Assembly: GCF_041287625.1 (NCBI RefSeq)
Contig: NZ_JBGGNH010000073.1
Location: forward strand, 165,430 to 189,429
Direction: 5' to 3'
DNA: 24,000 nt
DNA from: Ideonella sp.
Lineage (GTDB): Bacteria; Pseudomonadota; Gammaproteobacteria; Burkholderiales; Burkholderiaceae_C
Made by a program: the position numbers and the translations under genes. The notes beneath the pieces were generated by a model. It was not told the origin of the DNA and did not search any database. It saw nothing but the letters and a program-made list of their open reading frames with translations. Positions 1,271-11,736 of this stretch are shown here, in pieces. Within the stretch, counting starts at the first letter, position 1. Each line of letters begins with the position of its first letter.

Positions 1271-1573
1271 TCAGCTGAGATCGGAGCGGGCTGCGCGGTC
1301 TTTGAGCATGCGCGCGAATTCCGAGTCCCGACCAACAAGGGCGTCTGCCAAGGGCCAACCAGGCGCGGTTTCGATGAGGTGCAGCAGCGACCACGCCAGT
1401 CCGAAGCAGCTGTCGTCACCGAGGAGTGCCACCAATGCACGGGCCTCCTCGTTGGCCAGCGGCGGTGGGATCTGCTCGACGAGCGCCTGAATCCGTTTCA
1501 GCGCTTCAACGGTTGCAGTTTGCTCATCAGGCAGCCGGCCCATTTCAACGAGTTCTTCGACGACGGTGCGCAT
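1271..1573 (-). CDS. Hypothetical 100-aa helical protein in a lower-GC insert; resembles small immunity-type proteins (weak)
   Basis: ATG-started ORF MRTVVEELVEMGRLPDEQ...LLHLIETAPGWP...SDLS. GC3 is visibly lower (many A/T-ending codons) than in flanking genes. It sits between two phosphatase 3'-end remnants. No domain was recognised with certainty. Confidence 0.5.
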   Translation of the reverse strand: MRTVVEELVEMGRLPDEQTATVEALKRIQALVEQIPPPLANEEARALVALLGDDSCFGLAWSLLHLIETAPGWPLADALVGRDSEFARMLKDRAARSDLS

Positions 1574-1588
1574 GGAAATCTCCCCGAT

Positions 1589-1800
1589 TCGGCGCTTGCC
1601 CTTTGCACCAGCATGTCACCTGCGCATCCGGCCAGCTCACAGCGGCCTGGGCCATCGTCGAGAGTACATCGCGCAGCGCCCTCACCGACGAAACTGAAAA
1701 CGCCAGACGGTCGGACAGGCCCTCAGCTGTGCGTTGCACCGCCACATCAAGGCGGCTCAGCACAGAACCCTTTGGAATGCCGATATTTCCGAGCCGTTCG
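1589..1800 (-). pseudogene. Strongly diverged remnant (copy C) of the alkaline phosphatase C-terminal region
   Basis: The minus-strand frame reads LGNIGIPKG...AVQRTAEGLSDRLAFSVSSVRALRDVLSTMAQAAVSWPDA. This is collinear with LGNFLIPGQ...AVHTATDVPLSAFGPGAFSFVGVIDNTDVFFKLAQAAVKGPVAPA of the intact gene. The metal-ligand His of HTATD is changed to Gln. The terminal 15 nt tcggcgcttgccctt are identical to copy A. Indels break the frame. Confidence 0.45.
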
Positions 1801-1899
1801 AGATGGAGATCGTCGAGCGAGCTCGCCGATTCGGCCGGAGCGCGAAAGAAAGAACTGGCTTCGAGCAGTTCAGCCCGAACAGGGAAGCCGCACCAGCGC

Positions 1900-3933
1900 T
1901 CAGCGCTTGCCCTTCGCCTTCACCGTCATGTCCGCCGGCGCCACCGGGCCCTTCACCGCGGCCTGGGCCAGCTTGAAGAACACGTCGGTGTTGTCGATCA
2001 CGCCGACGAAGCTGAAGGCGCCGGGGCCGAAGGCGGAGAGCGGGACGTCGGTGGCGGTGTGCACTGCCGATTCGCCGGGGACCTGGCCGGGGATCAGGAA
2101 GTTGCCCAGGCCGTCGCGTTCGGCCGGGTTTTCCGGGTACCACTTCAGCGGCTCGGCCTTCACCAGGGGCTGCTGGCTGTCCTTGACCGGCTGCGGGTTG
2201 CTGCGCCAGTCTTCGTAGCGGTCGGCATTGGCGCCGTAGGCGACCAGCAGGCGGAAGTCGATGTCGGTGGTTTCGGGATAGCCGTCGGCGGCGATGCGGT
2301 ACTTCGGGAAACCGGCTTGCTCGTAGACGCCCACCACCTTGTCGCGCAGGTTGGCCGAGCCGCCGGCCTTGCCGAGCTGCTGCAGCACCGCGTCGGTGAC
2401 GCGGCTGGCGCCGATCAGCGCAGCGCCGGAGCATTCATGGTCGGCGGTGACGATGACCAGCGTGTCGCCGCGGTCGCGGGCGAAGTCCTGCGCCACCTGC
2501 ACCGTGCGGTCGAACTCGATGGTGTCCAGCATCCAACGCTCGGTGTCCATGTTGTGCGCCTGCTTGTCAATGGACGCGCCTTCGATCATCAGCACGAAGC
2601 CTTGCGTCTGGCGGGCCAGCGTGGCCAGCGCCTTCTCGGCCATTTCGTCGAGCATGGGCTGGTCGGGGAAGCCGTAGTCGTCCACCACGCTACCGGTCAG
2701 GCCCTGCTTTTTGCCGCGTCGGCCGTCTATCTTGTCCAGCGCCACGTTCATGTTGGACAGCGAGAACAGGCCCAGCAGCTTGCCGCCCTTGGCCGCGTCC
2801 AGCTCGGTCTTGCTGGATGCGTACTGGAAGCCGGCACCCTGGAAGTCCTTGATCAGGTCGCGGTCCTTGTCCAGCGCGCCGGGCGAGATGCCCCAGCGCT
2901 TGGCGATCTCGGCGCGGTGCGGGTCGGCGGCGTCGAACACGTAGTCGGTCTTGTCGCCGCGGGCCGAGCCGGGCGTGGCAGACGGCAGGAACCACTTGCG
3001 GCCGCCGCCCATCAGCACGGTCAGCCCCGTGGCGCCGCGGTCGTCGAAGAACTGGTCGACGATGCCGGTGCCCGCGCCGCGGTTGCTGGTGTGCACCGCG
3101 TTGCCGGCCGGCGTGGCGTCGAACACATCGGCCGTGGTGACGATGCCCAGCGCCTTGCCCTGCGTGCGGTGCAGGTACTCCGAGAGGTACTCGATGCGCG
3201 GGTTGTCGAAGGCGTCCGTCGTGTCGTCCGGGAACACGCCCTCTTCATTGTTGTTGTTCTTGTTGCCCAGCACGTAGGAGGTCATGCCCGGCGAGGAGTC
3301 GGTCACCACCGAGTTCAGCGACGAGGTCTTGACCAGCGCGGTCGCCGGGAAGGTGTCCATCGCCAGCGGCGCGATGGCCTTGCCCTGCGCATAGCCGTTC
3401 TTCACGATGCGCGCCGCCGTGCGCTGCGCCGCGCCCATGCCGTCACCCAGCAGGATGATCACGTTCTTCACGGGCTTGCCCTGCGGCGTGCTGAACGGGA
3501 TCACATCGAAATTGCCCCGCGCGCTGAGCTTCTGCCCATCGTCCTGCTCGGCCTCGATGCTGAACTCATGCCGCCCGGTGGCCGCCACGCTGAAGGCGCG
3601 CAGCGAGGCAATCACCGCATTCGCCGGCACGCCGGTCGTGCAACCGCTGGCGCAGTCACGCAAGGTCACGTTCCCCGCCGCTGGCTTGCCATCCAGCAGG
3701 AAGCGCGCACCACTCAGGCTGCGGCCGGCGTCCGGCCGCAAGGTGGCTTGCAGGTCGAAGCGCTGGCCCGGCAGGAAGCGCGCAATGACCGGCTCCGGCC
3801 GGCCCGAGCTGAACAGCTCACTCGGCGGCGTGAGCCGGCTCACGCTGGGCGCTGCGATGGCGCCGAGCGGCGCCAGTGCCAGCAAGGCGATCAACTGGAG
3901 GCGGTGAATGCGGTCAGCGTTCATGGTGGGCAT
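1900..3933 (-). CDS. Secreted alkaline phosphatase (PhoA/PF00245 family) with an extra N-terminal domain
   Basis: Signal peptide MPTMNADRIHRLQLIALLALAPLGAIAAPS. Motifs present: ILLGDGMGAAQ, VTDSSPGMTSY, IVTADHECSG and AVHTATDVPLSAFGPGA. The start is ATG 3933 (alternative ATG at 3924); the track start at 4002 looks like upstream read-through. Confidence 0.9.
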   Translation of the reverse strand: MPTMNADRIHRLQLIALLALAPLGAIAAPSVSRLTPPSELFSSGRPEPVIARFLPGQRFDLQATLRPDAGRSLSGARFLLDGKPAAGNVTLRDCASGCTTGVPANAVIASLRAFSVAATGRHEFSIEAEQDDGQKLSARGNFDVIPFSTPQGKPVKNVIILLGDGMGAAQRTAARIVKNGYAQGKAIAPLAMDTFPATALVKTSSLNSVVTDSSPGMTSYVLGNKNNNNEEGVFPDDTTDAFDNPRIEYLSEYLHRTQGKALGIVTTADVFDATPAGNAVHTSNRGAGTGIVDQFFDDRGATGLTVLMGGGRKWFLPSATPGSARGDKTDYVFDAADPHRAEIAKRWGISPGALDKDRDLIKDFQGAGFQYASSKTELDAAKGGKLLGLFSLSNMNVALDKIDGRRGKKQGLTGSVVDDYGFPDQPMLDEMAEKALATLARQTQGFVLMIEGASIDKQAHNMDTERWMLDTIEFDRTVQVAQDFARDRGDTLVIVTADHECSGAALIGASRVTDAVLQQLGKAGGSANLRDKVVGVYEQAGFPKYRIAADGYPETTDIDFRLLVAYGANADRYEDWRSNPQPVKDSQQPLVKAEPLKWYPENPAERDGLGNFLIPGQVPGESAVHTATDVPLSAFGPGAFSFVGVIDNTDVFFKLAQAAVKGPVAPADMTVKAKGKR

Positions 3934-3964
3934 GGGTTGGATTGGATGAATGTCTCGCGCGAAT

Positions 3965-4417
3965 TCAGGGTTGGGCCAGCTGCAGTTCCAGCCAGGCCAC
4001 ACGCCCGTCCGGCGCCACCGTGCGCCCGTAATGCAACCTGCCCTGCAGATCGATCAACCCAGGCTGATGCGGCAGCACCCGCGACGCGTCCAGCAGCCGC
4101 ACCAGCACCGTGGCCGGCGGCAAGTCGTCCGCATCCCCATCCGCGTGCTCGCTCATCTGCACCGGCCGTGCCGTCAGCAGGAAGGCACCCGGCACTGCGT
4201 CTTCCTGCGCGACCATCCAGCCGACCAGGCGCACCTGCTGGTCCTGCGCCGCGAGCAGGCGATCGGTGGGCTGCAGGCCAGCGGCGCCGACGGGGGTCTG
4301 GAAGAAGTCGGCGAAGCGGAGGGTTTGGGCGGCGGTGTCCGCGGCTTGGGCGGCGGAAAGGCCGCAGACCAGCAGCAGGCTGCCAACGATGGAACTGAGG
4401 CGTCGGTTGTCGCGCAT
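3965..4417 (-). CDS. Secreted hypothetical protein (possibly DUF3299-like), first gene of the phosphatase operon
   Basis: ATG at 4417 gives MRDNRRLSSIVGSLLLVCGLSAAQA, a signal peptide. The gene ends 31 nt before the phosphatase start on the same strand. The family assignment is from memory only. Confidence 0.6.
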   Translation of the reverse strand: MRDNRRLSSIVGSLLLVCGLSAAQAADTAAQTLRFADFFQTPVGAAGLQPTDRLLAAQDQQVRLVGWMVAQEDAVPGAFLLTARPVQMSEHADGDADDLPPATVLVRLLDASRVLPHQPGLIDLQGRLHYGRTVAPDGRVAWLELQLAQP

Positions 4418-4593: not shown

Positions 4594-7500
4594 ATGAGAA
4601 GAATTGCATTTGCCACGCTGTACCGTGCGCAACCGCGTGAGCGGCAGTGCGTGATCGAGGTCGTCGAGTTGGACCTGCCGGCGCAGTCTGCAAGCCGATA
4701 CGTGGTGACGCTGCGCCAGGGCTTGCTCAAGGGCGGCGTGGTGCTGGACCCTCAGGAGTCTTCGCTGACCGCGAGGCCCTGCACGCTGGACGAGGCCCAG
4801 CGTCGCGCGATTGACTTCATTCAACGCCGGCTCGCCGCAGCCGAACGGCTGCAACAGCACGAGGGCCTGCCCGGCCTCGCCACTGCCGAACCGCCTGCGC
4901 CATCGAACGCCGCTGCCGTAAAGGCGCCGGCCAGTGACGCCGTGCCGCCCAGCATCGCTGCGCTGGTGGCCCGCTTCGCTCCCGAGCGCTGGCAACTGCT
5001 GCCGGCATCGCAGTGGTCCCGCGCCGTGTGGCGCGTCGCCGAATGCAGCGATGCTGCCGGTGGTGCGGGCCAGCGTGCGCTGGTGGCGCTGGTGCCGCGC
5101 CTGGTCGAACTGCTGGAGAGCGGCGACGACCTGCTGGACCTGTGCATTGCCGTGGCCGTCGCCCGGCTGGGCGACGGCGGTGCCGCGGTGGCGATGCAGG
5201 CGCTGGCAGGCCGAGGCCGCAGCCCGGCCACGCGGCGCACGGCGCACCAGGCCTGGCTGATGCTGCAAACGCCCGAGGCCCTGCGCGCGCATGCCGAGGG
5301 CCTGCTGCCCGAGTGGCAGGCCGAGGTCGAAAGCAGCGAGCGCAGCGTGGCGCAAGTCGCTGCGCTGCAGGACCGCGTGACGGCCCGCGGGCCGGGTTGG
5401 GTGCCGCTGCTGGGCGACTGGTATGACCTGGCGCTGGTGCGCCCGGCGGCGCGGGCCAGCCTGCTCGCATTGCTGGCCGAGTTGCCGCTGCAGCCCGGCC
5501 CGTTCCAGGCACTGCGCTACCTGTACAAGGCAGCCGAGATTCGCCGCGATGCGCCGGTGCTGGGCCTGCTGCATGCACGCTTCGAGAACACTCGCGCCTA
5601 TTTCAACCGCCCGGCCTACAGCGGCAACGGCTTCACCGATCCGGCCACAAAGCGCTGGGTCAAGACCCCCATTGCCAAAGAACTGAGCCGGCCCCAGCCG
5701 CGCCTGGCCTACAGCGACGCAACACGCGATTACCTGCGCCTGCGCGGCTGGCGCACGCTGCGGCGGCTGGCGGCCATCGGTCACTCGCACGCACCCGAGT
5801 TGGCGGTGCAACTGCTGCTTGGGTTGGCGGACGATGCGTTGCCAGCGGCGCGCGTGGAAGCCCGCTGGGATCGCGTCGAAGGCCGGTACCAGCGGCATGA
5901 CCGGCAGTACCACCCTGCCGCCTACTGGCTGCTGGTGCCCAAGCTGCTGCTGGCGCAAGCGCCGGGGGTGCATGTGAGCGCCCGCGGCAAGCGCTGGTGG
6001 ACCGACCAGCCGCTGGACACCAGCGCCGCGCTGCCCCAACGCAGCGAGGGCCTGCAGGACATGTGGAACGCCCACCCTGAAGCGCTGCTCGCATTGGCGC
6101 TGCAAAGCCGCAGCGCGCTGGTGCATGCGGTGGTGGCGAGGGCGCTGCAGGACCACGCCGGGTTCGTTGCGCAGCAACCGGTGGCCGTGCTGAAGGAGCT
6201 GCTGCAAAGCGCGCATGCGCCGACTGCCCGCGTCGGCTTCGAAGCCGTGCGTGCCCGCGTGTTGGCCAGCAGTGCGCTACAGGACCAGGTGCCGTGGCTG
6301 CTGCTGCTCGTGCAGAGCAGCGACGGCGCGGCCCGCGAGTTCGCCTTCGTGCACATCGCCTCGGACCCGGCCGGCTTTGCGGCGCATGCCGAACTGGTGG
6401 TGGCACTGCTGCTGTCGGCCCACGAACGCACACGGCGCCAGGGCCAGGGCCTGGCCTTGATCGCCTCGGCGCCGGCCCTGGTCAACGAACTGCAAGGCGC
6501 GCTGCTGGCCGCCGATGCCGATGCCCCGGGCCTGCGCGACGGCCTGGTGCTGGTGGAACAGTTGCTGCGCGGCCCGCTGGCCGAGGCTGCGGCGCAAGCG
6601 CCGACCGAAGCACTGCTGTGCCTGCTCGACCATGCCGACGCCGGCGTGCTGCACCTGGCCGTCGTGTGGCTGCTGCTGCATGCCCATGGCGCCGCGTTGG
6701 TGGCGCCGGCCACGCTGGCGCGGCTGCTGGTGGACGAGGACCCTTACCGCCGCGCCTCGGGTGTGCGGCTGCTCGCGGCACTGCCTGACGAGGTGCTGCG
6801 CACGCAGGCCGAGCTGCTGAGCGACCTGGCCGTGAGCCCGCATGCGGGCATTCGCGAAGCCTTGGCGCCGGCCTTGCTGCGGCTGGCGGACGACCCGGCT
6901 TTCGCCTCGGCCCTGGCCGCTCGACTGCATGCCTCGCTGTTCACCAGCGAGACCGGCGACGGCCAACACGAGGACGCGCTGCGCTGGCTCACCACCACGC
7001 TGCAGACCCATGCGCCTGCGCGCGACGCCTCGGGCGCCTGGCGCGCATTGCATGCGCAAAGCGCGGGCGCGCAGCTTTACGGCGCCTGGGCATTGGCATC
7101 TCTGCCCAGCACCGAGTTCAGCCTCAAGCAACAGGCCACGCTGGCCCGCCATGCGGACGCGGCTGTGCGCGCCTGGGCGATGGCCGCAATCGACCGCACG
7201 CTGCCGGCGGTGCCCAGCCCGGAACAGTCTGCCCAGCTCCTGCCGCTGGCCGACACGCTGTTCGACGACGCCCGCGCCTATGCCCACCAGTTGTTCGCCG
7301 AGCGCCTGCCGGATGCAGCGCTGACGCCCGAGCTGCTGATCGCCTGGGTCGACCACCCGCAGCCCTGGGTGCAGGCGCTGGGCCGCAGCCGCCTCGTGCG
7401 CCGCATGGCCGCCGGCGAGGCCAGCCTGTGCCTCACCCGGCTGAGCCAGCACCCGAGCGCCAGCGTGCAGCTCTTTGTCACGCAATGGCTGCTGGAACTG

Positions 7501-7827
7501 CCGCGGGACGACGACGCCCAGCTCGCGGCGCGCCTGCGCGAATTGACGCCCTACTTCCTCACCGTGCTGAGCCAGGTGAACCGCAGCCGCGTCGCCAAGT
7601 CCCGCATCACCGCCTTCCTGCGTAAGGCGAGCGACGCGCCGCAAGCCGCTGCAGTGGTGGCCGAGATCTTTGCGCGCCAGGTGGTGACCTGCAGCCTGAC
7701 CGACAAGCCGCAATACATCGCCGGGCTGCGCGACATTGCCGCGCACCATCCGCAGATCGCCCTGCCCTTCATCGCCTGGGCGCCGCCACCGGTGCGCAGC
7801 GCGGCCAACGCCACGGAGGGCGCATGA
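4594..7827 (+). CDS. Large (1077 aa) Leu/Ala-rich helical-repeat protein with a degenerate WGR-like N-terminal domain (MolR/YehI-like partner of SWIM proteins)
   Basis: ATG is preceded by GGAGGAG. GC3 is high throughout. The N-terminal ~90 aa have WGR-like topology (CVIEVVELDL...RYVVTLRQGLLKGG...LDEAQRRAIDFIQRRL), but the W-G-R triad reads R-Q-G. The rest is HEAT/ARM-like repetitive helices. The stop overlaps the next gene's start (ATGA). Confidence 0.75.
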   Translation: MRRIAFATLYRAQPRERQCVIEVVELDLPAQSASRYVVTLRQGLLKGGVVLDPQESSLTARPCTLDEAQRRAIDFIQRRLAAAERLQQHEGLPGLATAEPPAPSNAAAVKAPASDAVPPSIAALVARFAPERWQLLPASQWSRAVWRVAECSDAAGGAGQRALVALVPRLVELLESGDDLLDLCIAVAVARLGDGGAAVAMQALAGRGRSPATRRTAHQAWLMLQTPEALRAHAEGLLPEWQAEVESSERSVAQVAALQDRVTARGPGWVPLLGDWYDLALVRPAARASLLALLAELPLQPGPFQALRYLYKAAEIRRDAPVLGLLHARFENTRAYFNRPAYSGNGFTDPATKRWVKTPIAKELSRPQPRLAYSDATRDYLRLRGWRTLRRLAAIGHSHAPELAVQLLLGLADDALPAARVEARWDRVEGRYQRHDRQYHPAAYWLLVPKLLLAQAPGVHVSARGKRWWTDQPLDTSAALPQRSEGLQDMWNAHPEALLALALQSRSALVHAVVARALQDHAGFVAQQPVAVLKELLQSAHAPTARVGFEAVRARVLASSALQDQVPWLLLLVQSSDGAAREFAFVHIASDPAGFAAHAELVVALLLSAHERTRRQGQGLALIASAPALVNELQGALLAADADAPGLRDGLVLVEQLLRGPLAEAAAQAPTEALLCLLDHADAGVLHLAVVWLLLHAHGAALVAPATLARLLVDEDPYRRASGVRLLAALPDEVLRTQAELLSDLAVSPHAGIREALAPALLRLADDPAFASALAARLHASLFTSETGDGQHEDALRWLTTTLQTHAPARDASGAWRALHAQSAGAQLYGAWALASLPSTEFSLKQQATLARHADAAVRAWAMAAIDRTLPAVPSPEQSAQLLPLADTLFDDARAYAHQLFAERLPDAALTPELLIAWVDHPQPWVQALGRSRLVRRMAAGEASLCLTRLSQHPSASVQLFVTQWLLELPRDDDAQLAARLRELTPYFLTVLSQVNRSRVAKSRITAFLRKASDAPQAAAVVAEIFARQVVTCSLTDKPQYIAGLRDIAAHHPQIALPFIAWAPPPVRSAANATEGA

Positions 7828-9533
7828 AGTTCCAGTACCGCTACTACGGCAGCACCTCGGTCGATGCCAGCGACACCACGCAGGCCTTCAGCCTCGCGCC
7901 GGACACGCTGCGCCCGCCCACCAGCTTCCAGGGCGAGCTGCGCCGCAGCGGCGGCGTGCACCTGGCGTTCCGCGAAGCTCTGTCGGCGCTGCATTCGGTG
8001 GTGGTGAGCGACCAGCGCTACCGCGGCCGCGACCCCTCGGCCTACAAGACCTGGCTGGAGGCCAACGAGAACACGCTGCTCACGCAGTACATGCAGCAAG
8101 CGCAAACGCTACGTGCCGAGGCGAGTGCCGTCACCAGCGAGCTGAAGACCCTGCGCAACCAGAAGGACACGCTGCTGCGCCCCTTCTACATAGCCAGGCA
8201 GAAATACTTCAACTGGCTCTACCTGGCCAACCGCGACGCCTGGTACGTGTTGGACCCGGTGATCACCGTACACCCCGAGCGCCTGCTGTTCGAGGCCTTC
8301 AGCCAGGACGAGTCCAGCTACTGCGCGGTGAGCGTCAGCCACAACGTGTTCAGTCGCACTGCCGAGATGGCCTGCGGCACGACCAACATCGACTACTCCA
8401 TCGGCCTGTTCGACGAGTTCCAGAAGATTCGCGACTACAAGGCCACGAGCTTCCAGGTGGACCCGGCCGGCTTCAGCGTGGCCACCGGCAGCGACCCGGC
8501 CTTCCGCGAAGAAAAGATCGACCTGCCCGACAGCTGGGTGCGCGGCTTCCTGCAGGTCTCCAGCGCGATGACGCTGCCGGCCACCGTGCTGGAGCTGCAC
8601 CCGATGGACCTGCACAACCTGTGCGCCACCTTGCGCCAGCACAAGGAACGCGCCGGCCCCCGCTCGCTGCGCTTCGAGCTGTCGCCGGGCCAGCCGGCCC
8701 GCCTGGTGTTCGAGCCCTGGGGCATCGAACTCACGGCGCGGCGCAGCGCCATCGTCGGCACGCCGCTCAGCGAGCCACGCAGCATCCGCCTGTGGGGCCG
8801 GCGCCGGCTGCTCACGCTGGAGCGGCTGATCGCGCTCGCCACCCGCGTGCGGGTGCACCTGCTGGGCACCGGCATGCCGAGCTTCTGGGTCATCGAGATG
8901 GGCGAGATCAGCGTCACGCTGGGGCTTTCGGGCTGGACGGCCAACGACTGGTCCGCCGCCGGCCGCTTCAACCTGCTGGCACCGCGCCACACCGTGAGCG
9001 CGGCCACCAAGCAGGCCGTGGCCGCGGCGCTGCAGCGCGACTGGGTGGCCACGCCAGCCGAACTCGCCGCCCGCACTGCGCTGCCCGAAGCGGACGTGAG
9101 CGCCGCGCTTGCGCTGTGGGTGCAGGCCGGCCGCGCGGTGTACGACCTGCCGGGCCAGCGCTACGCCTGGCGCGAACTGTCGCGCGAACCTTTGCCGCTG
9201 GAAACGCTGCGCTTTGCCAGCCCCGAGGAAGACGCGGCGCTGAAGCTGGTGCAGGCGCGTGGCGGTGTCACGCTGAAGGACATCGGCGCCAGTGGCGACG
9301 GGCAGCTGCGCATCACGGGCACGGTGAAGGACGGCAAACGCGAGTTCTCGCCATCGCTGCTGCTGAATGCCGACGAACAGCTGCGCGACGCGCAATGCGG
9401 CTGCAACTTCTTCCAGCAGAACAAGCTGCGCCGCGGGCCGTGTGCGCACATGCTGGCGCTGCGTCAGGTGGCACAACCGAAGTTGAATGAAACCAGAACA
9501 CAGCGCGCCGTGACGGCTGGAGAAGCGGCATGA
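7824..9533 (+). CDS. SWIM zinc-finger family protein (YehQ-like)
   Basis: C-terminal CxCx12CxH signature CGCNFFQQNKLRRGPCAH at nt 9397-9450. The ATGA overlap with the upstream gene indicates translational coupling. GC3 is high. Confidence 0.9.
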   Translation: MKFQYRYYGSTSVDASDTTQAFSLAPDTLRPPTSFQGELRRSGGVHLAFREALSALHSVVVSDQRYRGRDPSAYKTWLEANENTLLTQYMQQAQTLRAEASAVTSELKTLRNQKDTLLRPFYIARQKYFNWLYLANRDAWYVLDPVITVHPERLLFEAFSQDESSYCAVSVSHNVFSRTAEMACGTTNIDYSIGLFDEFQKIRDYKATSFQVDPAGFSVATGSDPAFREEKIDLPDSWVRGFLQVSSAMTLPATVLELHPMDLHNLCATLRQHKERAGPRSLRFELSPGQPARLVFEPWGIELTARRSAIVGTPLSEPRSIRLWGRRRLLTLERLIALATRVRVHLLGTGMPSFWVIEMGEISVTLGLSGWTANDWSAAGRFNLLAPRHTVSAATKQAVAAALQRDWVATPAELAARTALPEADVSAALALWVQAGRAVYDLPGQRYAWRELSREPLPLETLRFASPEEDAALKLVQARGGVTLKDIGASGDGQLRITGTVKDGKREFSPSLLLNADEQLRDAQCGCNFFQQNKLRRGPCAHMLALRQVAQPKLNETRTQRAVTAGEAA

Positions 9534-9552
9534 GCACTGATAGACTTCTTGC

Positions 9553-9781
9553 GGGTGCAGCGCGTTGGCTCTTGCAATCCGGGCGATGTTTCGTCGCCCT
9601 TGCCAACCGCCTGTTCATGCGTCACGGGTGCCGTCTTCACTGTGCCGCGCTCGCGCCCTGTGCGCAATTGCGGTTGGGCTTGTCTCAAGCCAATTGGCGC
9701 ACAGGGCGCGGCGCGGCGTCGAGTGGACAGCCCCCGTCCTCGGAGCCCCTCGGGCTCTTCGATGAGAAACGCGCTGCACCC
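9553..9781 (+). ncRNA. Retron msr-msd non-coding RNA
   Basis: a1 GGGTGCAGCGCGTT (9553-9566) is the perfect reverse complement of a2 AACGCGCTGCACCC (9768-9781). GG at 9567-9568 lies directly 3' of a1 and is the candidate branching G. There is an msr hairpin GGGCGA/TCGCCC (9581-9599). The msd long stem pairs 9644-9670 with 9691-9717 (7+14+5 bp, two 1-nt bulges), and a second hairpin GAGCCC-ctc-GGGCTC lies at 9743-9757. a2 ends 29 nt before the RT ATG. Confidence 0.8.
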
Positions 9782-9810
9782 ACCCTTCCCGTTCCTGGAG
9801 CGATGGCAGC

Positions 9811-11736
9811 ATGAGCGGCGAGCGTCAACCGACCCGCGCCGAGCTGATCGCGCGCATTGCCGCGTCCAGCAAGGACGCCGTGGTGCTGAAGGAAATGCAG
9901 CGCTCGGGCTTCTGGCCGAAAGATGCCGCCGCCCCGACCGTCGAAGCCGCGCTGATCCAGCGCGAAGCCGAGCTGGTGCAGGTGCTGAACAAGCTGCAGG
10001 CCGAACTGCGCGAGAAGGGCGACCCGCAGGCCGCGCTGAAGGCCATGCGCCAGCAACGCATGGCCGAGGCCAAGGAACGCCGCGAGGCCACCGCGCAGAA
10101 GCTCGAACGTGAACGCTACGAACGCGCGCTGCAGTGGCGCGAGCGCAGTCGGCATGAGATCGGCTACCTGGGCCAGGGCGTGTCGGCCGGCTTGCAGCCG
10201 CGCCCGGACAACGCAGGCTCGCACGAGAAGCTGCAGCGCCAGGGCCTGCCATTGCTGGACACGCCACAGGCACTGGCCGATGCGATGGGCGTGCCGGTGG
10301 CCGAGCTGCGTTTCCTGGCCTTCCACCGCGAGGTGGCGCGCACGCAGCACTACCGCCGCTTCTCGCTGCCGAAGAAAACGGGCGGCGTGCGCACGATCAG
10401 CGCGCCGATGCCGCGGCTCAAGCGCGCGCAGTACTGGGTGCTGGACAACGTGCTGGCCAAGGTGACTGTGCATGCGGCTGCGCACGGTTTCCTGCCGGGC
10501 AGGTCCATCGTCAGCAATGCCGCGCCGCATGCGGGCCAAGCGGTGGTCATCAACCTGGACCTGAAGGATTTTTTCCCCAGCGTCGCCTACCCGCGCATCA
10601 AGGGCGTGTTCCGCGCGCTGGGCTACAGCGAGGCCACGGCCACGCTGCTGGCCCTGCTGTGCAGCGAAAACGTGTGCGACGAACTGCAGGTCGACGGCGA
10701 GCGCTTCTTCGTGGGCCGCACCGCGCGCGAACGTGTGCTGCCGCAAGGCGCACCCACCAGCCCGATGCTGACCAACATCCTGTGCCGCAGGCTGGACAAG
10801 CGGCTGCAGGGCATTGCCACCAAGCTCGGCTTCACCTACACCCGCTATGCCGACGACCTGAGCTTCTCGGCCTCGGGCGAGGCCGCCAGCCTGACCGGGC
10901 GCCTGCTGCGCCAGGTGCACCACATCCTGAAGGCCGAAGGCTTCACGCCGCACCCTGACAAGCAGCATGTGATGCATGCTGGCCGCCGCCAGGAGGTGAC
11001 AGGGGTTGTGGTCAACAAACAGCCCGCCGTCTCTCGCGAGCAGCGCCGTGCGTTGCGCGCCGCGCTGCACCGCGCAACGCACCAAGGCGTTGAGGCCGCC
11101 ACCTGGCAAGGCGAACCCGCCGCCCGCAATGTGCTGCTCGGCTACGCCCAGTTCGTCACGATGGTGAATGCCAGGCACGGCGCGCCGCTGCTGGCGCAGG
11201 CCAAGGCGCTGCCTTCGGCGGCCTCCGCGCCTTCGGCGATGACGAAGGCCGTGCCGTCAGGCCAGTTCCGCCGGCACGCCGCTGAAGGCAAGGCCCCGCC
11301 GCGCGCCAATGGCGCTTGGTGGCAGCCGGCGCCAAAGCCCGAGCCGGTGCTGCTGAAGACGGCGGGGCAGATCAAGGCCGAACGGCAGGCCCGCCTGGCT
11401 GAGGTGCGCGCCGAGCGCCAGGCCGCGAAGGTCACGGCGACCCAGGCCGCAACCCCTCGCCGCTTGCCGCGCACTGCCACGCCGCCTTCCGCAGCCGCAG
11501 CCAGTGACCTGCAGCAGGAGACCCACGCCCCGCTGCTGCCTCGCATGCGCTGGGAGATCGCTGCAGCCCAGGTGGCGATGCTGATCTACCTGTCGGTGCG
11601 TCTCAAGAGCCCGGGCCTCTTCATGATCGGCTCGCTGTGGCTGGGCTGGCGCGTGATGCGGCGCAAGTTCGGCTGGACGGGCTACTTCGTGGCGATGCTG
11701 GTCATCGGGGTCGCGGCGCTCATGCTGCGGCTGTAA
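9811..11736 (+). CDS. Retron-type reverse transcriptase with N-terminal coiled-coil extension and C-terminal transmembrane domain
   Basis: Motifs collinear with Ec86 RT: NAAPHAG (NAxxH), VINLDLKDFFPSV, LPQGAPTSPMLTNI, YTRYADDLSFS (YADD), QEVTGVVVN (VTG). GGAG lies 10 nt upstream of the ATG. An extra ~140 aa N-terminus is present. The last 65 aa contain 2-3 hydrophobic helices (IAAAQVAMLIYLSV, GLFMIGSLWLGW, GYFVAMLVIGVAALML). Confidence 0.93.
   Translation: MSGERQPTRAELIARIAASSKDAVVLKEMQRSGFWPKDAAAPTVEAALIQREAELVQVLNKLQAELREKGDPQAALKAMRQQRMAEAKERREATAQKLERERYERALQWRERSRHEIGYLGQGVSAGLQPRPDNAGSHEKLQRQGLPLLDTPQALADAMGVPVAELRFLAFHREVARTQHYRRFSLPKKTGGVRTISAPMPRLKRAQYWVLDNVLAKVTVHAAAHGFLPGRSIVSNAAPHAGQAVVINLDLKDFFPSVAYPRIKGVFRALGYSEATATLLALLCSENVCDELQVDGERFFVGRTARERVLPQGAPTSPMLTNILCRRLDKRLQGIATKLGFTYTRYADDLSFSASGEAASLTGRLLRQVHHILKAEGFTPHPDKQHVMHAGRRQEVTGVVVNKQPAVSREQRRALRAALHRATHQGVEAATWQGEPAARNVLLGYAQFVTMVNARHGAPLLAQAKALPSAASAPSAMTKAVPSGQFRRHAAEGKAPPRANGAWWQPAPKPEPVLLKTAGQIKAERQARLAEVRAERQAAKVTATQAATPRRLPRTATPPSAAAASDLQQETHAPLLPRMRWEIAAAQVAMLIYLSVRLKSPGLFMIGSLWLGWRVMRRKFGWTGYFVAMLVIGVAALMLRL

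What the first reader, a model, noticed from the sequence alone, without database searches (positions are those of the whole stretch)
9553..9781. Textbook retron msr-msd architecture readable directly from the sequence
- **a1/a2:** a1 GGGTGCAGCGCGTT (9553-9566) and a2 AACGCGCTGCACCC (9768-9781) are a perfect 14-bp inverted repeat that brackets 201 nt.
- **Branching G:** immediately 3' of a1 comes GG (9567-9568). This is where retrons place the 2'-OH priming guanosine.
- **msr:** the 5' part contains a small hairpin GGGCGA-tgtttcg-TCGCCC (9581-9599).
- **msd long stem:** the 3' part contains a 26-bp stem. The pairs are 9644-9650 with 9711-9717, 9652-9665 with 9697-9710, and 9666-9670 with 9691-9695. 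T9651 and G9696 are bulged, and the stem is capped by a GCTT-gtctc-AAGC mini-hairpin.
- **Second msd hairpin:** GAGCCC-ctc-GGGCTC lies at 9743-9757.
- **Predicted product:** reverse transcription starting at 9767 and running leftward would give an msDNA of roughly 100-130 nt dominated by the long hairpin.
- **Possible own promoter:** TGGAGA (9518-9523), a 17-nt spacer and TAGACT (9541-9546) would start transcription near a1. Each hexamer matches only 4/6.
Basis: seen in the sequence. Interest (0 to 1): 0.8.

Follow-up and report, generated by a model that had tools for sequence, protein, structure and literature searches.

The report
Type XIII retron msr-msd RNA gene
The 229-base stretch is a genuine retron template RNA gene of the already catalogued type XIII (Mx162-like) family in an Ideonella genome; the one unexpected feature is a conserved open reading frame that runs through it and links the two flanking genes.

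Summary
The element lies between a SWIM zinc-finger gene and a reverse transcriptase (RT) gene. PADLOC assigns these, and the upstream WGR/HEAT gene, to retron type XIII, the family of Mx162, Sa163 and Ne144.

In 13 Burkholderiales-type loci the same RNA sits in the same place. 98% of the 83 predicted pair positions are paired, and 46 pairs show compensatory changes. A covariance model built from these loci also finds the RNA upstream of type XIII RTs in myxobacteria, Vibrionaceae, alphaproteobacteria, cyanobacteria and Bacteroidota. This is a new member of a known kind.

- The long stem is 42 pairs (9624-9737), not 26.
- The msDNA is more likely about 150-160 nt than 100-130 nt.
- The -10 hexamer TAGACT is conserved at a fixed distance from the RNA. 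The -35 is not conserved.

One unexpected feature is the 94-codon ORF 9530-9814 that covers the RNA. It starts on the SWIM stop codon and ends on the RT start codon. It stays open in 38 of 42 alpha-, beta- and gammaproteobacterial-type loci, in different frames and without codon periodicity. I read it as a translational bridge, which is an inference.

The parts
4594..7827 (+). Accessory gene 1: WGR-like / HEAT-ARM repeat protein, 1077 aa
   Evidence: PADLOC WGR_XIII, E 6.6e-268, covering residues 1-1065. It has no Pfam hit. A gene of 1047-1118 aa occupies the same position in 9 of the 10 homolog loci L081-L090; in L083 it is split into two shorter genes.
7824..9533 (+). Accessory gene 2: SWIM zinc-finger protein, 569 aa. 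Its start overlaps the stop of the upstream gene (ATGA).
   Evidence: PADLOC SWIM_XIII, E 1.7e-215. Pfam SWIM, E 3.4e-4, residues 517-546. The C-terminal CGCNFFQQNKLRRGPCAH is CxCx12CxH, the motif given for type XIII in PMC7736814.
9541..9546 (+). -10-like promoter hexamer TAGACT, preceded by TGA (an extended -10 TGn). The predicted transcription start is near 9553.
   Evidence: A TAnACT hexamer lies exactly 20 nt before the conserved G in 14 of 15 cluster-1 loci. TATACT lies exactly 23 nt before it in all 12 cluster-2 loci scored, 7 of them with a TTGxxx -35 at an 18-nt spacer and most with TGT before the hexamer. The generic scan found no full sigma-70 site in the window.
9553..9781 (+). msr-msd non-coding RNA gene, from a1 to a2
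   Evidence: Fold z = -8.9. 13-locus alignment A2: 83 pairs, 98.3% of cells paired, 46 pairs with changes on both sides, against 6-17 in the slid controls. Model R1 scores 268 bits on + and 43 bits on -.
9553..9566 (+). a1 arm of the terminal inverted repeat
   Evidence: 14/14 complementary to a2. 9 of 13 consensus pairs covary in A2, and 13 of 13 in the 88-sequence alignment A3.
9567..9567 (+). Predicted priming (branching) guanosine. G9568 is the alternative.
   Evidence: GG is invariant in A2 and is preceded by one unpaired A/T/G. The consensus context is (C/T)AGGC. Mx162 and Sa163 prime from the G of CAGC (PMC6868368). The position is inferred and not tested.
9567..9611 (+). msr domain: the 8-pair hairpin 9581-9588/9592-9599, enclosed by 9574-9577/9600-9603 and possibly by 9567-9569/9609-9611
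   Evidence: This is the most sequence-conserved part of the RNA (GGCTCTTGCAAyCCGGGCGrTGTTTCGyCGCCC). The hairpin helix is 100% paired with 3 covarying pairs in A2 and 99.7% paired in A3. The outer two helices do not covary in A2.
9624..9737 (+). Long msd stem, 42 pairs, capped by the mini-hairpin 9678-9682/9686-9690
   Evidence: 29 of 42 pairs, and 4 of 5 cap pairs, have compensatory changes in A2. The base of the stem is conserved in sequence and the interior is variable. Folded as DNA, the predicted msDNA gives -58.7 kcal/mol, z = -8.5.
9743..9757 (+). Second msd hairpin. Five pairs are conserved (9744-9748/9752-9756). The outer G-C pair is specific to the window.
   Evidence: 100% paired in A2, with one covarying pair (C-G in 7 sequences, U-A in 6). 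In A3 this region is gapped in many of the other sequences.
9768..9781 (+). a2 arm. Reverse transcription is predicted to start on template base 9767.
   Evidence: As for a1. The start position is inferred from the general retron mechanism (PMC7736814).
9530..9814 (+). 94-codon 'bridging' ORF covering the whole msr-msd. Its ATG overlaps the SWIM stop (ATGA), GGAGAA lies 5 nt upstream, and its TGA overlaps the RT ATG (ATGA).
   Evidence: The same arrangement is found in 38 of 42 alpha/beta/gamma-proteobacterial-type loci. In 16 representative loci, stops number 0 in the bridge frame against 57 and 57 in the other two frames. P(open) is 0.29 for the window and 0.001-0.004 in Vibrionaceae. The frame relative to the RNA differs between clades, and there is no third-position periodicity. 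The ORF has no protein-family hit.
9811..11736 (+). Retron reverse transcriptase, 641 aa, with N-terminal extension, RT core and hydrophobic C-terminal tail
   Evidence: PADLOC RT_XIII, E 1.4e-178, residues 4-505. Pfam RVT_1, residues 187-400. NAAPH 236-240, YADD 346-349 and VTG 396-398 are invariant in A1. The protein is 100% identical to an Ideonella sp. MAG protein.

Best explanation
Window 9553-9781 (+) is the msr-msd template RNA gene of a type XIII retron. The operon order is WGR/HEAT protein, SWIM protein, ncRNA, RT, on the chromosome of an Ideonella sp. (Burkholderiales).

Mechanism. The anatomy is shown here; the chemistry is inferred from characterised retrons, including the type XIII members Mx162 and Sa163.
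1. The RNA is transcribed from a promoter whose -10 is TAGACT (9541-9546), starting near a1. It is also transcribed as part of the longer operon mRNA.
2. It folds so that a1 and a2 pair.
3. The RT binds the conserved msr domain (9567-9611).
4. The RT uses the 2'-OH of G9567 to prime DNA synthesis on template base 9767.
5. It copies leftwards through the second hairpin and the 42-pair stem while RNase H removes the template.
6. It stops in the single-stranded linker around 9604-9620.

The product would be a branched RNA-DNA molecule with about 150-160 nt of single-stranded DNA dominated by a long hairpin.

By analogy with other retrons, the msDNA-RT complex is expected to work together with the SWIM and HEAT proteins. 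No function has been demonstrated for type XIII.
For: - Gene content: the three genes match PADLOC WGR_XIII (E 7e-268), SWIM_XIII (E 2e-215) and RT_XIII (E 1e-178).
- Protein motifs: the SWIM protein has CxCx12CxH. The RT has NAxxH, YADD and VTG.
- Synteny: all 10 fetched homolog loci have the order SWIM gene, uncalled gap of 275-470 nt, RT gene, with a large or split upstream gene, and the flanking genes differ in every genome.
- Inverted repeat: each of these gaps, and the corresponding stretch of L001 and L002, contains a perfect 10-14 bp inverted repeat bracketing 201-205 nt.
- Covariation in A2 (13 sequences): 98.3% of cells paired, 46 of 83 pairs with compensatory changes, covariation score 0.416 against 0.04-0.08 in slid controls, 0 of 500 shuffles as high.
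- Covariation in A3 (88 distinct sequences from many phyla): 93.1% paired, 74 of 83 pairs with compensatory changes.
- Model R1 hits the + strand upstream of type XIII RTs from Archangium and Hyalangium (108-123 bits), Vibrionaceae, Methylobacterium, cyanobacteria and Bacteroidota.
- The GG after a1 is invariant.
- The -10 hexamer is conserved at a fixed distance from that G.
- Published context: type XIII contains the experimentally validated Mx162, Mx65, Sa163 and Ne144 (PMC7736814). In Mx162, 241 nt run from the 5' end to the start of the msd template, giving a 162-nt msDNA (PMC6868368). The equivalent stretch here, 9553-9767, is 215 nt with a much shorter a1.
Against: - No msDNA has been observed for this locus or for any Burkholderiales type XIII retron in the papers I could search.
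- Rfam 15 gives no retron match. There are no hits at gathering score in the whole window, and only generic hairpin (miRNA) matches at E up to 10 in 9300-10000.
- NCBIfam retron RT models score below their cut-offs: St85 213 against 235, Ec67 209 against 450.
- The priming G and the termination point are placed by analogy only.
- The region is also an open reading frame, so the RNA on the long operon transcript may be translated rather than folded.
Confidence: 0.9

Rival explanations
1. The stretch is simply a small protein-coding gene (the 94-aa ORF 9530-9814), translationally coupled between the SWIM and RT genes. On this view the hairpins are incidental GC-rich palindromes.
For: The ORF has an ATG with GGAGAA 5 nt upstream, overlaps both neighbours by ATGA, and is open in 38 of 42 related loci.
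Against: - The ORF has no family hit.
- Column entropy is 0.53, 0.52 and 0.59 at codon positions 1, 2 and 3, so there is no coding periodicity.
- The reading frame relative to homologous RNA positions differs between clades, and L087 is frameshifted internally. Peptides are alike only where the RNA and the frame coincide.
- Substitutions occur as compensatory pairs.
- Gene callers leave the gap empty in all 10 loci.
- The RNA, without any open frame, is present in myxobacterial, Bacteroidota and Acidobacteriota type XIII loci.
Confidence: 0.02
2. It is a structured intergenic RNA element of the operon that is not reverse transcribed, for example a processing site, attenuator or RT-binding autoregulatory leader.
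For: It sits between two co-oriented genes of one operon. The long hairpin alone gives generic hairpin matches. No msDNA data exist for this clade.
Against: - The full retron layout is conserved: terminal inverted repeat, invariant G next to it, msr hairpins, long msd stem.
- Model R1, built from this clade, matches the RNAs upstream of type XIII RTs in the myxobacterial genera Archangium and Hyalangium. Type XIII is the family of the msDNA-producing Mx162 and Sa163 (PMC7736814).
- No T-run terminator follows the stem on the + strand.
Confidence: 0.04
3. It is a retron by descent that is no longer active in this genome, that is, a decaying RNA or RT.
For: Nothing specific. This cannot be excluded without an experiment, and the source is a metagenome-assembled genome.
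Against: - All three ORFs are intact and full length against their PADLOC profiles.
- All catalytic and retron-specific RT motifs are present.
- The window RNA is among the top six scorers with R1, although it is one of the sequences the model was built from.
- It has no broken pairs in the conserved helices.
Confidence: 0.04

Closest known systems
Retron-Mxa1 (Mx162) and Retron-Sau1 (Sa163) of myxobacteria, the first retrons described; type XIII / RT clade 10 of Mestre et al. 2020
   Same: - Same RT clade, with an N-terminal extension.
- Same accessory gene types (SWIM, WGR/HEAT).
- Same RNA plan and size. In Mx162, 241 nt run from the 5' end to the start of the msd template; the equivalent stretch here, 9553-9767, is 215 nt.
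- Model R1 from this clade hits the Archangium and Hyalangium RNAs at 108-123 bits.
- The priming G lies in an AG context: CAGC in Mx162, (C/T)AGGC in this clade's consensus and TTGGC in the window.
   Different: - a1/a2 is 13-14 bp here. From my own knowledge it is about 34 bp in Mx162.
- The RT is 641 aa with a hydrophobic C-terminal tail, against 485 aa for Mx162 (own knowledge).
- The host is a betaproteobacterium.
- The RNA lies inside a conserved bridging ORF, which most of the myxobacterial loci I fetched lack.
- No msDNA has been shown for this locus.
Type XIII retron ncRNA consensus predicted by Mestre et al. 2020 (NAR 48:12632), as annotated by PADLOC and DefenseFinder
   Same: Gene order and content, the SWIM CxCx12CxH motif, and an ncRNA placed next to the RT. 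The authors note that type XIII pairs a unique effector set with its own ncRNA structure class.
   Different: I could not run their covariance model, so identity with their consensus is inferred through the myxobacterial hits of my own model. I found no mention of an ORF over the ncRNA, a conserved -10 box or a membrane tail on the RT in the passages of that paper I read.
Retron-Eco1 (Ec86), the mechanistic reference retron
   Same: An a1/a2 duplex, a priming G next to it, msr hairpins recognised by the RT, an msd stem-loop copied into DNA, and the RT gene downstream of msd on one transcript.
   Different: Ec86 has a different RT clade and effector (type II-A), an msDNA of 86 nt and an RT of about 320 aa. 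The accessory genes here lie upstream of the ncRNA.

Membership tests
Retron (msr-msd plus RT) | RT of the retron clade with YADD and the retron-specific NAxxH and VTG motifs | tested here: met
   NAAPH 236-240, YADD 346-349 and VTG 396-398 are invariant in 16 homologs. All of the top PADLOC hits are retron RT models.
Retron (msr-msd plus RT) | ncRNA next to the RT gene, on the same strand, bracketed by the inverted repeats a1/a2 | tested here: met
   A 14-bp perfect repeat, with a2 ending 29 nt before the RT ATG. 9 of 13 stem pairs covary in A2 and 13 of 13 in A3.
Retron (msr-msd plus RT) | Conserved guanosine at the inner end of a1 (the 2'-OH primer) | tested here: met
   GG at 9567-9568 is invariant in A2, and a G at this column is near-universal in A3. 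Its role as the branch point is not testable here.
Retron (msr-msd plus RT) | msr hairpin(s) plus a long stable msd stem-loop | tested here: met
   An 8-pair msr hairpin and a 42-pair msd stem plus cap, supported by 3 and 33 covarying pairs.
Retron (msr-msd plus RT) | Production of branched multicopy single-stranded DNA with a 2'-5' link | not testable with these tools
   This needs a nucleic-acid extraction from the strain or from an expression clone.
Type XIII retron (Mestre et al. 2020) | RT of clade 10 | tested here: met
   PADLOC RT_XIII, E 1.4e-178 (593 bits), against 347 bits for the next model.
Type XIII retron (Mestre et al. 2020) | [quoted passage not shown] | tested here: met
   PADLOC SWIM_XIII, E 1.7e-215, and the motif CGCNFFQQNKLRRGPCAH.
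Type XIII retron (Mestre et al. 2020) | Preceding WGR-like / HEAT-ARM repeat protein (cluster 216) | tested here: met
   PADLOC WGR_XIII, E 6.6e-268, and HEAT-ARM_XIII, E 2.5e-16.
Type XIII retron (Mestre et al. 2020) | Type XIII (Mx162-class) ncRNA structure | tested here: inconclusive
   My model R1 links the window RNA to RNAs upstream of type XIII RTs in Archangium and Hyalangium at 108-123 bits. The published model and the Mx162 sequence itself were not available to score.
Rfam retron RNA families (release 15) | Match at or above a family's gathering score | tested here: not met
   There are 0 matches in the window at gathering score. At E up to 10 in 9300-10000 there are only miRNA-precursor hairpin matches. 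This RNA family appears to be absent from Rfam.
NCBIfam retron RT families (St85, Ec67, TIR) | Score above the curated cut-off | tested here: not met
   Scores are 213 against a cut-off of 235, 209 against 450, and 205 against 600. The RT is related to these families but belongs to none of them.

The most novel reading that the evidence does not exclude
In alpha-, beta- and gammaproteobacterial type XIII retrons the template RNA gene lies inside a short ORF that is selected only to stay open. Ribosomes finishing the SWIM gene would restart on the overlapping ATG, translate straight through msr-msd, and hand over to the RT start codon.

This would couple RT synthesis to SWIM synthesis on the operon mRNA and keep that copy of the RNA unfolded. 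A separate promoter just upstream of a1 would make the copy that folds and is reverse transcribed.

A stronger version, which my evidence does not exclude, is that ribosome traffic through the template sets how much msDNA is made. The retron would then respond to the cell's translation status, for example when a phage shuts translation down.
Probability: 0.5. Interest if true: 0.6.

Novelty: new member of a known kind. Interest (0 to 1): 0.35.

Why it matters
The retron itself adds little: standard defence-system annotators would label this locus as retron type XIII.

Three things may still be useful.
- **An RNA model.** The work yields a well-supported alignment and covariance model for the type XIII template RNA. 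Rfam lacks this family, no function is known for type XIII, and it includes the first retron ever found.
- **A testable coupling device.** The conserved bridging ORF and the fixed-distance -10 box suggest two expression routes for one template RNA, one translated and one folded. I found no description of this in the papers I searched. It can be tested with stop codons that preserve the RNA pairing.
- **A possible localisation clue.** The hydrophobic C-terminal tail on the RT hints that this clade's retron complex sits at the membrane.

Tried and rejected
- **Rfam scans.** Neither the whole window at gathering score nor 9300-10000 at E up to 10 gave a retron family, only hairpin look-alikes.
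- **Generic promoter scan.** It found nothing in 9300-9900.
- **The ORF as a real protein.** Rejected for five reasons: no family hits, no codon periodicity, frame changes between clades, weak peptide similarity, and no gene call in any of the 10 loci.
- **The ORF as a pure GC-content artefact.** Rejected because it persists at 45-49% GC in Vibrionaceae, where the other two frames carry 6-9 stops, P about 0.001-0.004.
- **Source organism.** I suspected a myxobacterium, and Ne144 in particular. The RT is instead 100% identical to a protein from an Ideonella sp. MAG.
- **Plasmid search with the RT.** It gave only distant hits on megaplasmids or chromids, and nothing about mobility.
- **Literature.** Searches for retron with translational coupling, retron with SWIM, Mx162, and the retron census paper gave no functional or msDNA data for type XIII outside myxobacteria, and no mention of an ORF over the ncRNA.

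Full report
**The observation.**
- The terminal repeat GGGTGCAGCGCGTT / AACGCGCTGCACCC is 14 of 14 with 201 nt between the arms. A repeat that long at that spacing arose in 2 of 1000 shuffles of the surrounding 700 nt.
- As RNA, 9545-9790 folds to -142.4 kcal/mol, against -101.5 +/- 4.6 for dinucleotide shuffles (z = -8.9).
- The long stem is larger than described. It runs from 9624 to 9737, 42 pairs with a few bulges, and is capped by GCTTG-TCT-CAAGC.

**Gene context.** The window is about 69% G+C. Four + strand reading frames are chained by ATGA overlaps:
- 4594-7827 (1077 aa) matches PADLOC WGR_XIII at E 7e-268.
- 7824-9533 (569 aa) matches PADLOC SWIM_XIII at E 2e-215.
- 9530-9814 (94 aa) covers the candidate RNA.
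- 9811-11736 (641 aa) matches PADLOC RT_XIII at E 1e-178.

Pfam sees the SWIM finger and RVT_1. The SWIM protein ends with CxCx12CxH. The RT carries NAAPH, YADD and VTG.

Mestre et al. 2020 define type XIII by exactly this gene set. They place Mx162, Mx65, Sa163 and Ne144 in it (PMC7736814). The RT is 100% identical to a protein of an Ideonella sp. metagenome-assembled genome. The neighbouring genes are ordinary chromosomal genes, including purL, a methionine aminopeptidase-type peptidase, an AI-2E transporter and a hybrid histidine kinase.

**Evidence from related sequences.** RT homologs are abundant in Burkholderiales, including Roseateles, Aquabacterium, Delftia, Xenophilus and Caenimonas.
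- Ten homolog loci all show a SWIM gene, then a gap of 275-470 nt in which no gene was called, then the RT. Nine have a single HEAT/WGR-sized gene upstream, and L083 has it split in two. The flanking genes differ in every genome.
- Each of these gaps, and the corresponding stretch of L001 and L002, holds a perfect 10-14 bp inverted repeat bracketing 201-205 nt. The repeat sequence itself differs between loci.
- 98.3% of pair cells are standard pairs. The covariation score is 0.416, against 0.04-0.08 when the 3' partners are slid by 1-3 columns, and 0 of 500 shuffles reach it.
- Conservation has the shape expected of a retron RNA. The msr domain and the base of the msd stem are nearly invariant in sequence. 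The interior of the stem varies freely but stays paired.

**Reach of the RNA family.** A covariance model built from A2 (R1) scores the window at 268 bits on the + strand and 43 bits on the - strand. It finds a full-length match upstream of the RT in the great majority of the type XIII loci I searched. These include Archangium and Hyalangium (108-123 bits), Vibrionaceae, Methylobacterium, Bradyrhizobium, cyanobacteria, Acidobacteriota and Bacteroidota. On that 88-sequence alignment, 93.1% of cells are paired and 74 of 83 pairs show compensatory changes. That alignment was fitted to the model, so it leans towards the structure.

Rfam has no matching family.

**What it is and how it should work.** This is the template RNA of a type XIII retron.
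- **Priming G.** The invariant GG follows a1 after one unpaired base. The consensus context (C/T)AGGC resembles the CAGC around the priming G of Mx162 and Sa163 (PMC6868368). I therefore place the branch at G9567, with G9568 as the alternative.
- **msDNA length.** The msr domain closes at 9611, 45 nt after the G. That is the same length as the stretch of Mx162 RNA between its priming G and the 3' end of the template, computed from the published 241-nt, 71-nt and 162-nt figures and an a1 of about 34 nt, which is from my own knowledge.
- **DNA fold.** Folded as DNA, that product is a long hairpin of -58.7 kcal/mol, z = -8.5.

These placements are inferences by analogy. No msDNA data exist for this clade, and no function is established for type XIII in the papers I could search.

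**Promoter.**
- A TAnACT hexamer lies exactly 20 nt upstream of the conserved G in 14 of 15 close loci.
- In a second cluster of loci (RT 49-55% identical) it is TATACT at exactly 23 nt, usually preceded by TGT. Seven of those 12 loci also have TTGxxx 18 nt further upstream.
- In the window, TGA precedes TAGACT, which fits an extended -10. Transcription would then start at about 9553, the first base of a1.
- The proposed -35 TGGAGA is not conserved. It overlaps a conserved GGAG that sits 5-9 nt before the ATG of the overlapping ORF.

**The overlapping ORF.** I expected the 94-codon ORF 9530-9814 to be a by-product of high G+C. In the window alone it could be, since P(open) is 0.29 by dinucleotide shuffling. 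Across related loci it is not.
- **Both ends.** In 38 of 42 alpha-, beta- and gammaproteobacterial-type loci, the SWIM gene ends in NTGA and that NTG starts an ORF. The ORF is free of stops across the entire RNA and ends on a stop that overlaps the RT start. That stop is mostly ATGA, and of the ATGnnTAA or ATGnnTGA type in Vibrionaceae and L002.
- **Length.** ORF lengths range from 93 to 145 codons. The spacers on both sides of the RNA differ in length between loci, yet the frame is kept.
- **Stop counts.** In 16 representative loci, the bridge frame has 0 stops and the other two frames have 57 each. In Vibrionaceae, at 45-49% G+C, P(open) is 0.001-0.004.
- **No selection on the peptide.**
  - The reading frame relative to homologous RNA positions differs between clades, and L087 carries an internal frameshift yet stays open.
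  - Column entropy is flat across codon positions (0.53, 0.52, 0.59).
  - The peptides match no family and resemble each other only where RNA and frame coincide.
- **Where it is absent.** The ORF is missing in L090, in the two Undibacterium loci, in Bacteroidota and Acidobacteriota, and in most myxobacterial loci. L084 has a shorter version. It is therefore not required for the RNA family.

My reading is that the frame is kept open so that ribosomes can pass from the SWIM gene through the structured RNA to the RT gene on the operon mRNA. The promoter at a1 would supply the copy that folds. This is an inference. I found no description of it in the library.

**Verdict.** The finding is real and correctly interpreted, but it is a member of a catalogued family and not a new kind of element. 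The points worth carrying forward are the corrected anatomy, a usable RNA model for a family missing from Rfam, the conserved -10 box, the bridging ORF, and a hydrophobic C-terminal tail on the RT.

Noticed in passing
window 9530-9814 (+); also L081-L089, L091-L114, L005-L007, L012, L016, L020, L023, L024, L033, L039, L113: A conserved stop-free ORF bridges the SWIM stop codon and the RT start codon across the whole retron RNA. It is open in 38 of 42 alpha/beta/gamma-proteobacterial-type loci, in differing frames and without codon periodicity. I found no report of this in the papers searched.
   Followed up: yes
window 11500-11733 (RT residues about 565-641): Beyond the RT_XIII profile match (residues 4-505), the RT has an A/K/P-rich linker and a roughly 70-residue tail with 2-3 hydrophobic segments. 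The strongest is residues 623-641, mean Kyte-Doolittle score 1.95. All 16 aligned Burkholderiales homologs have such a tail, which suggests a membrane-anchored retron RT.
   Followed up: partly
L019 1008-1546; L021 2236-3080; L022 5824-6411; L026 5741-6473: Two or three tandem copies of the type XIII template RNA lie upstream of a single RT gene in Acidobacteriota and Bacteroidota metagenome-assembled genomes.
   Followed up: no
window 9567-9573 and 9752-9758: GGCTCTT occurs twice: directly after a1 (GGCTCTTGCAA) and in the 3' arm of the second msd hairpin, 10 nt before a2 (GGCTCTTCGATGAGAA). Both copies are nearly invariant in the Burkholderiales alignment. I did not explore a possible shared recognition or alternative pairing.
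   Followed up: no
window 9617-9619: An ATG in the single-stranded linker between msr and the msd stem (conserved motif CATGCG) is in frame with the bridging ORF in both Burkholderiales-type clusters, giving peptides ...MRHG... and ...MRHW.... It could be a start codon on the promoter-derived transcript, or simply part of the RT termination region.
   Followed up: no
L081 8628-12719 (- strand): The closest relative's locus has a second, RT-less pair close to the retron. One gene is a weak SWIM protein and the other carries DUF6493, DUF7824 and DUF7825. This suggests that SWIM plus repeat-protein pairs also exist without a retron.
   Followed up: no
L084 5530-6001: This is an exception to the bridging ORF. 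In Aquabacterium sp. A7-Y the ORF through the RNA ends at 5850, on another SD-preceded ATGA, 150 nt before the called RT start. Either a second short ORF follows, or the RT start is miscalled.
   Followed up: no
window 1426-4398 (+): A 990-aa ORF immediately upstream of the retron operon has no Pfam, PADLOC or NCBIfam match. Whether it belongs to the system is unknown. The genes in the corresponding position of the homolog loci differ between genomes.
   Followed up: no
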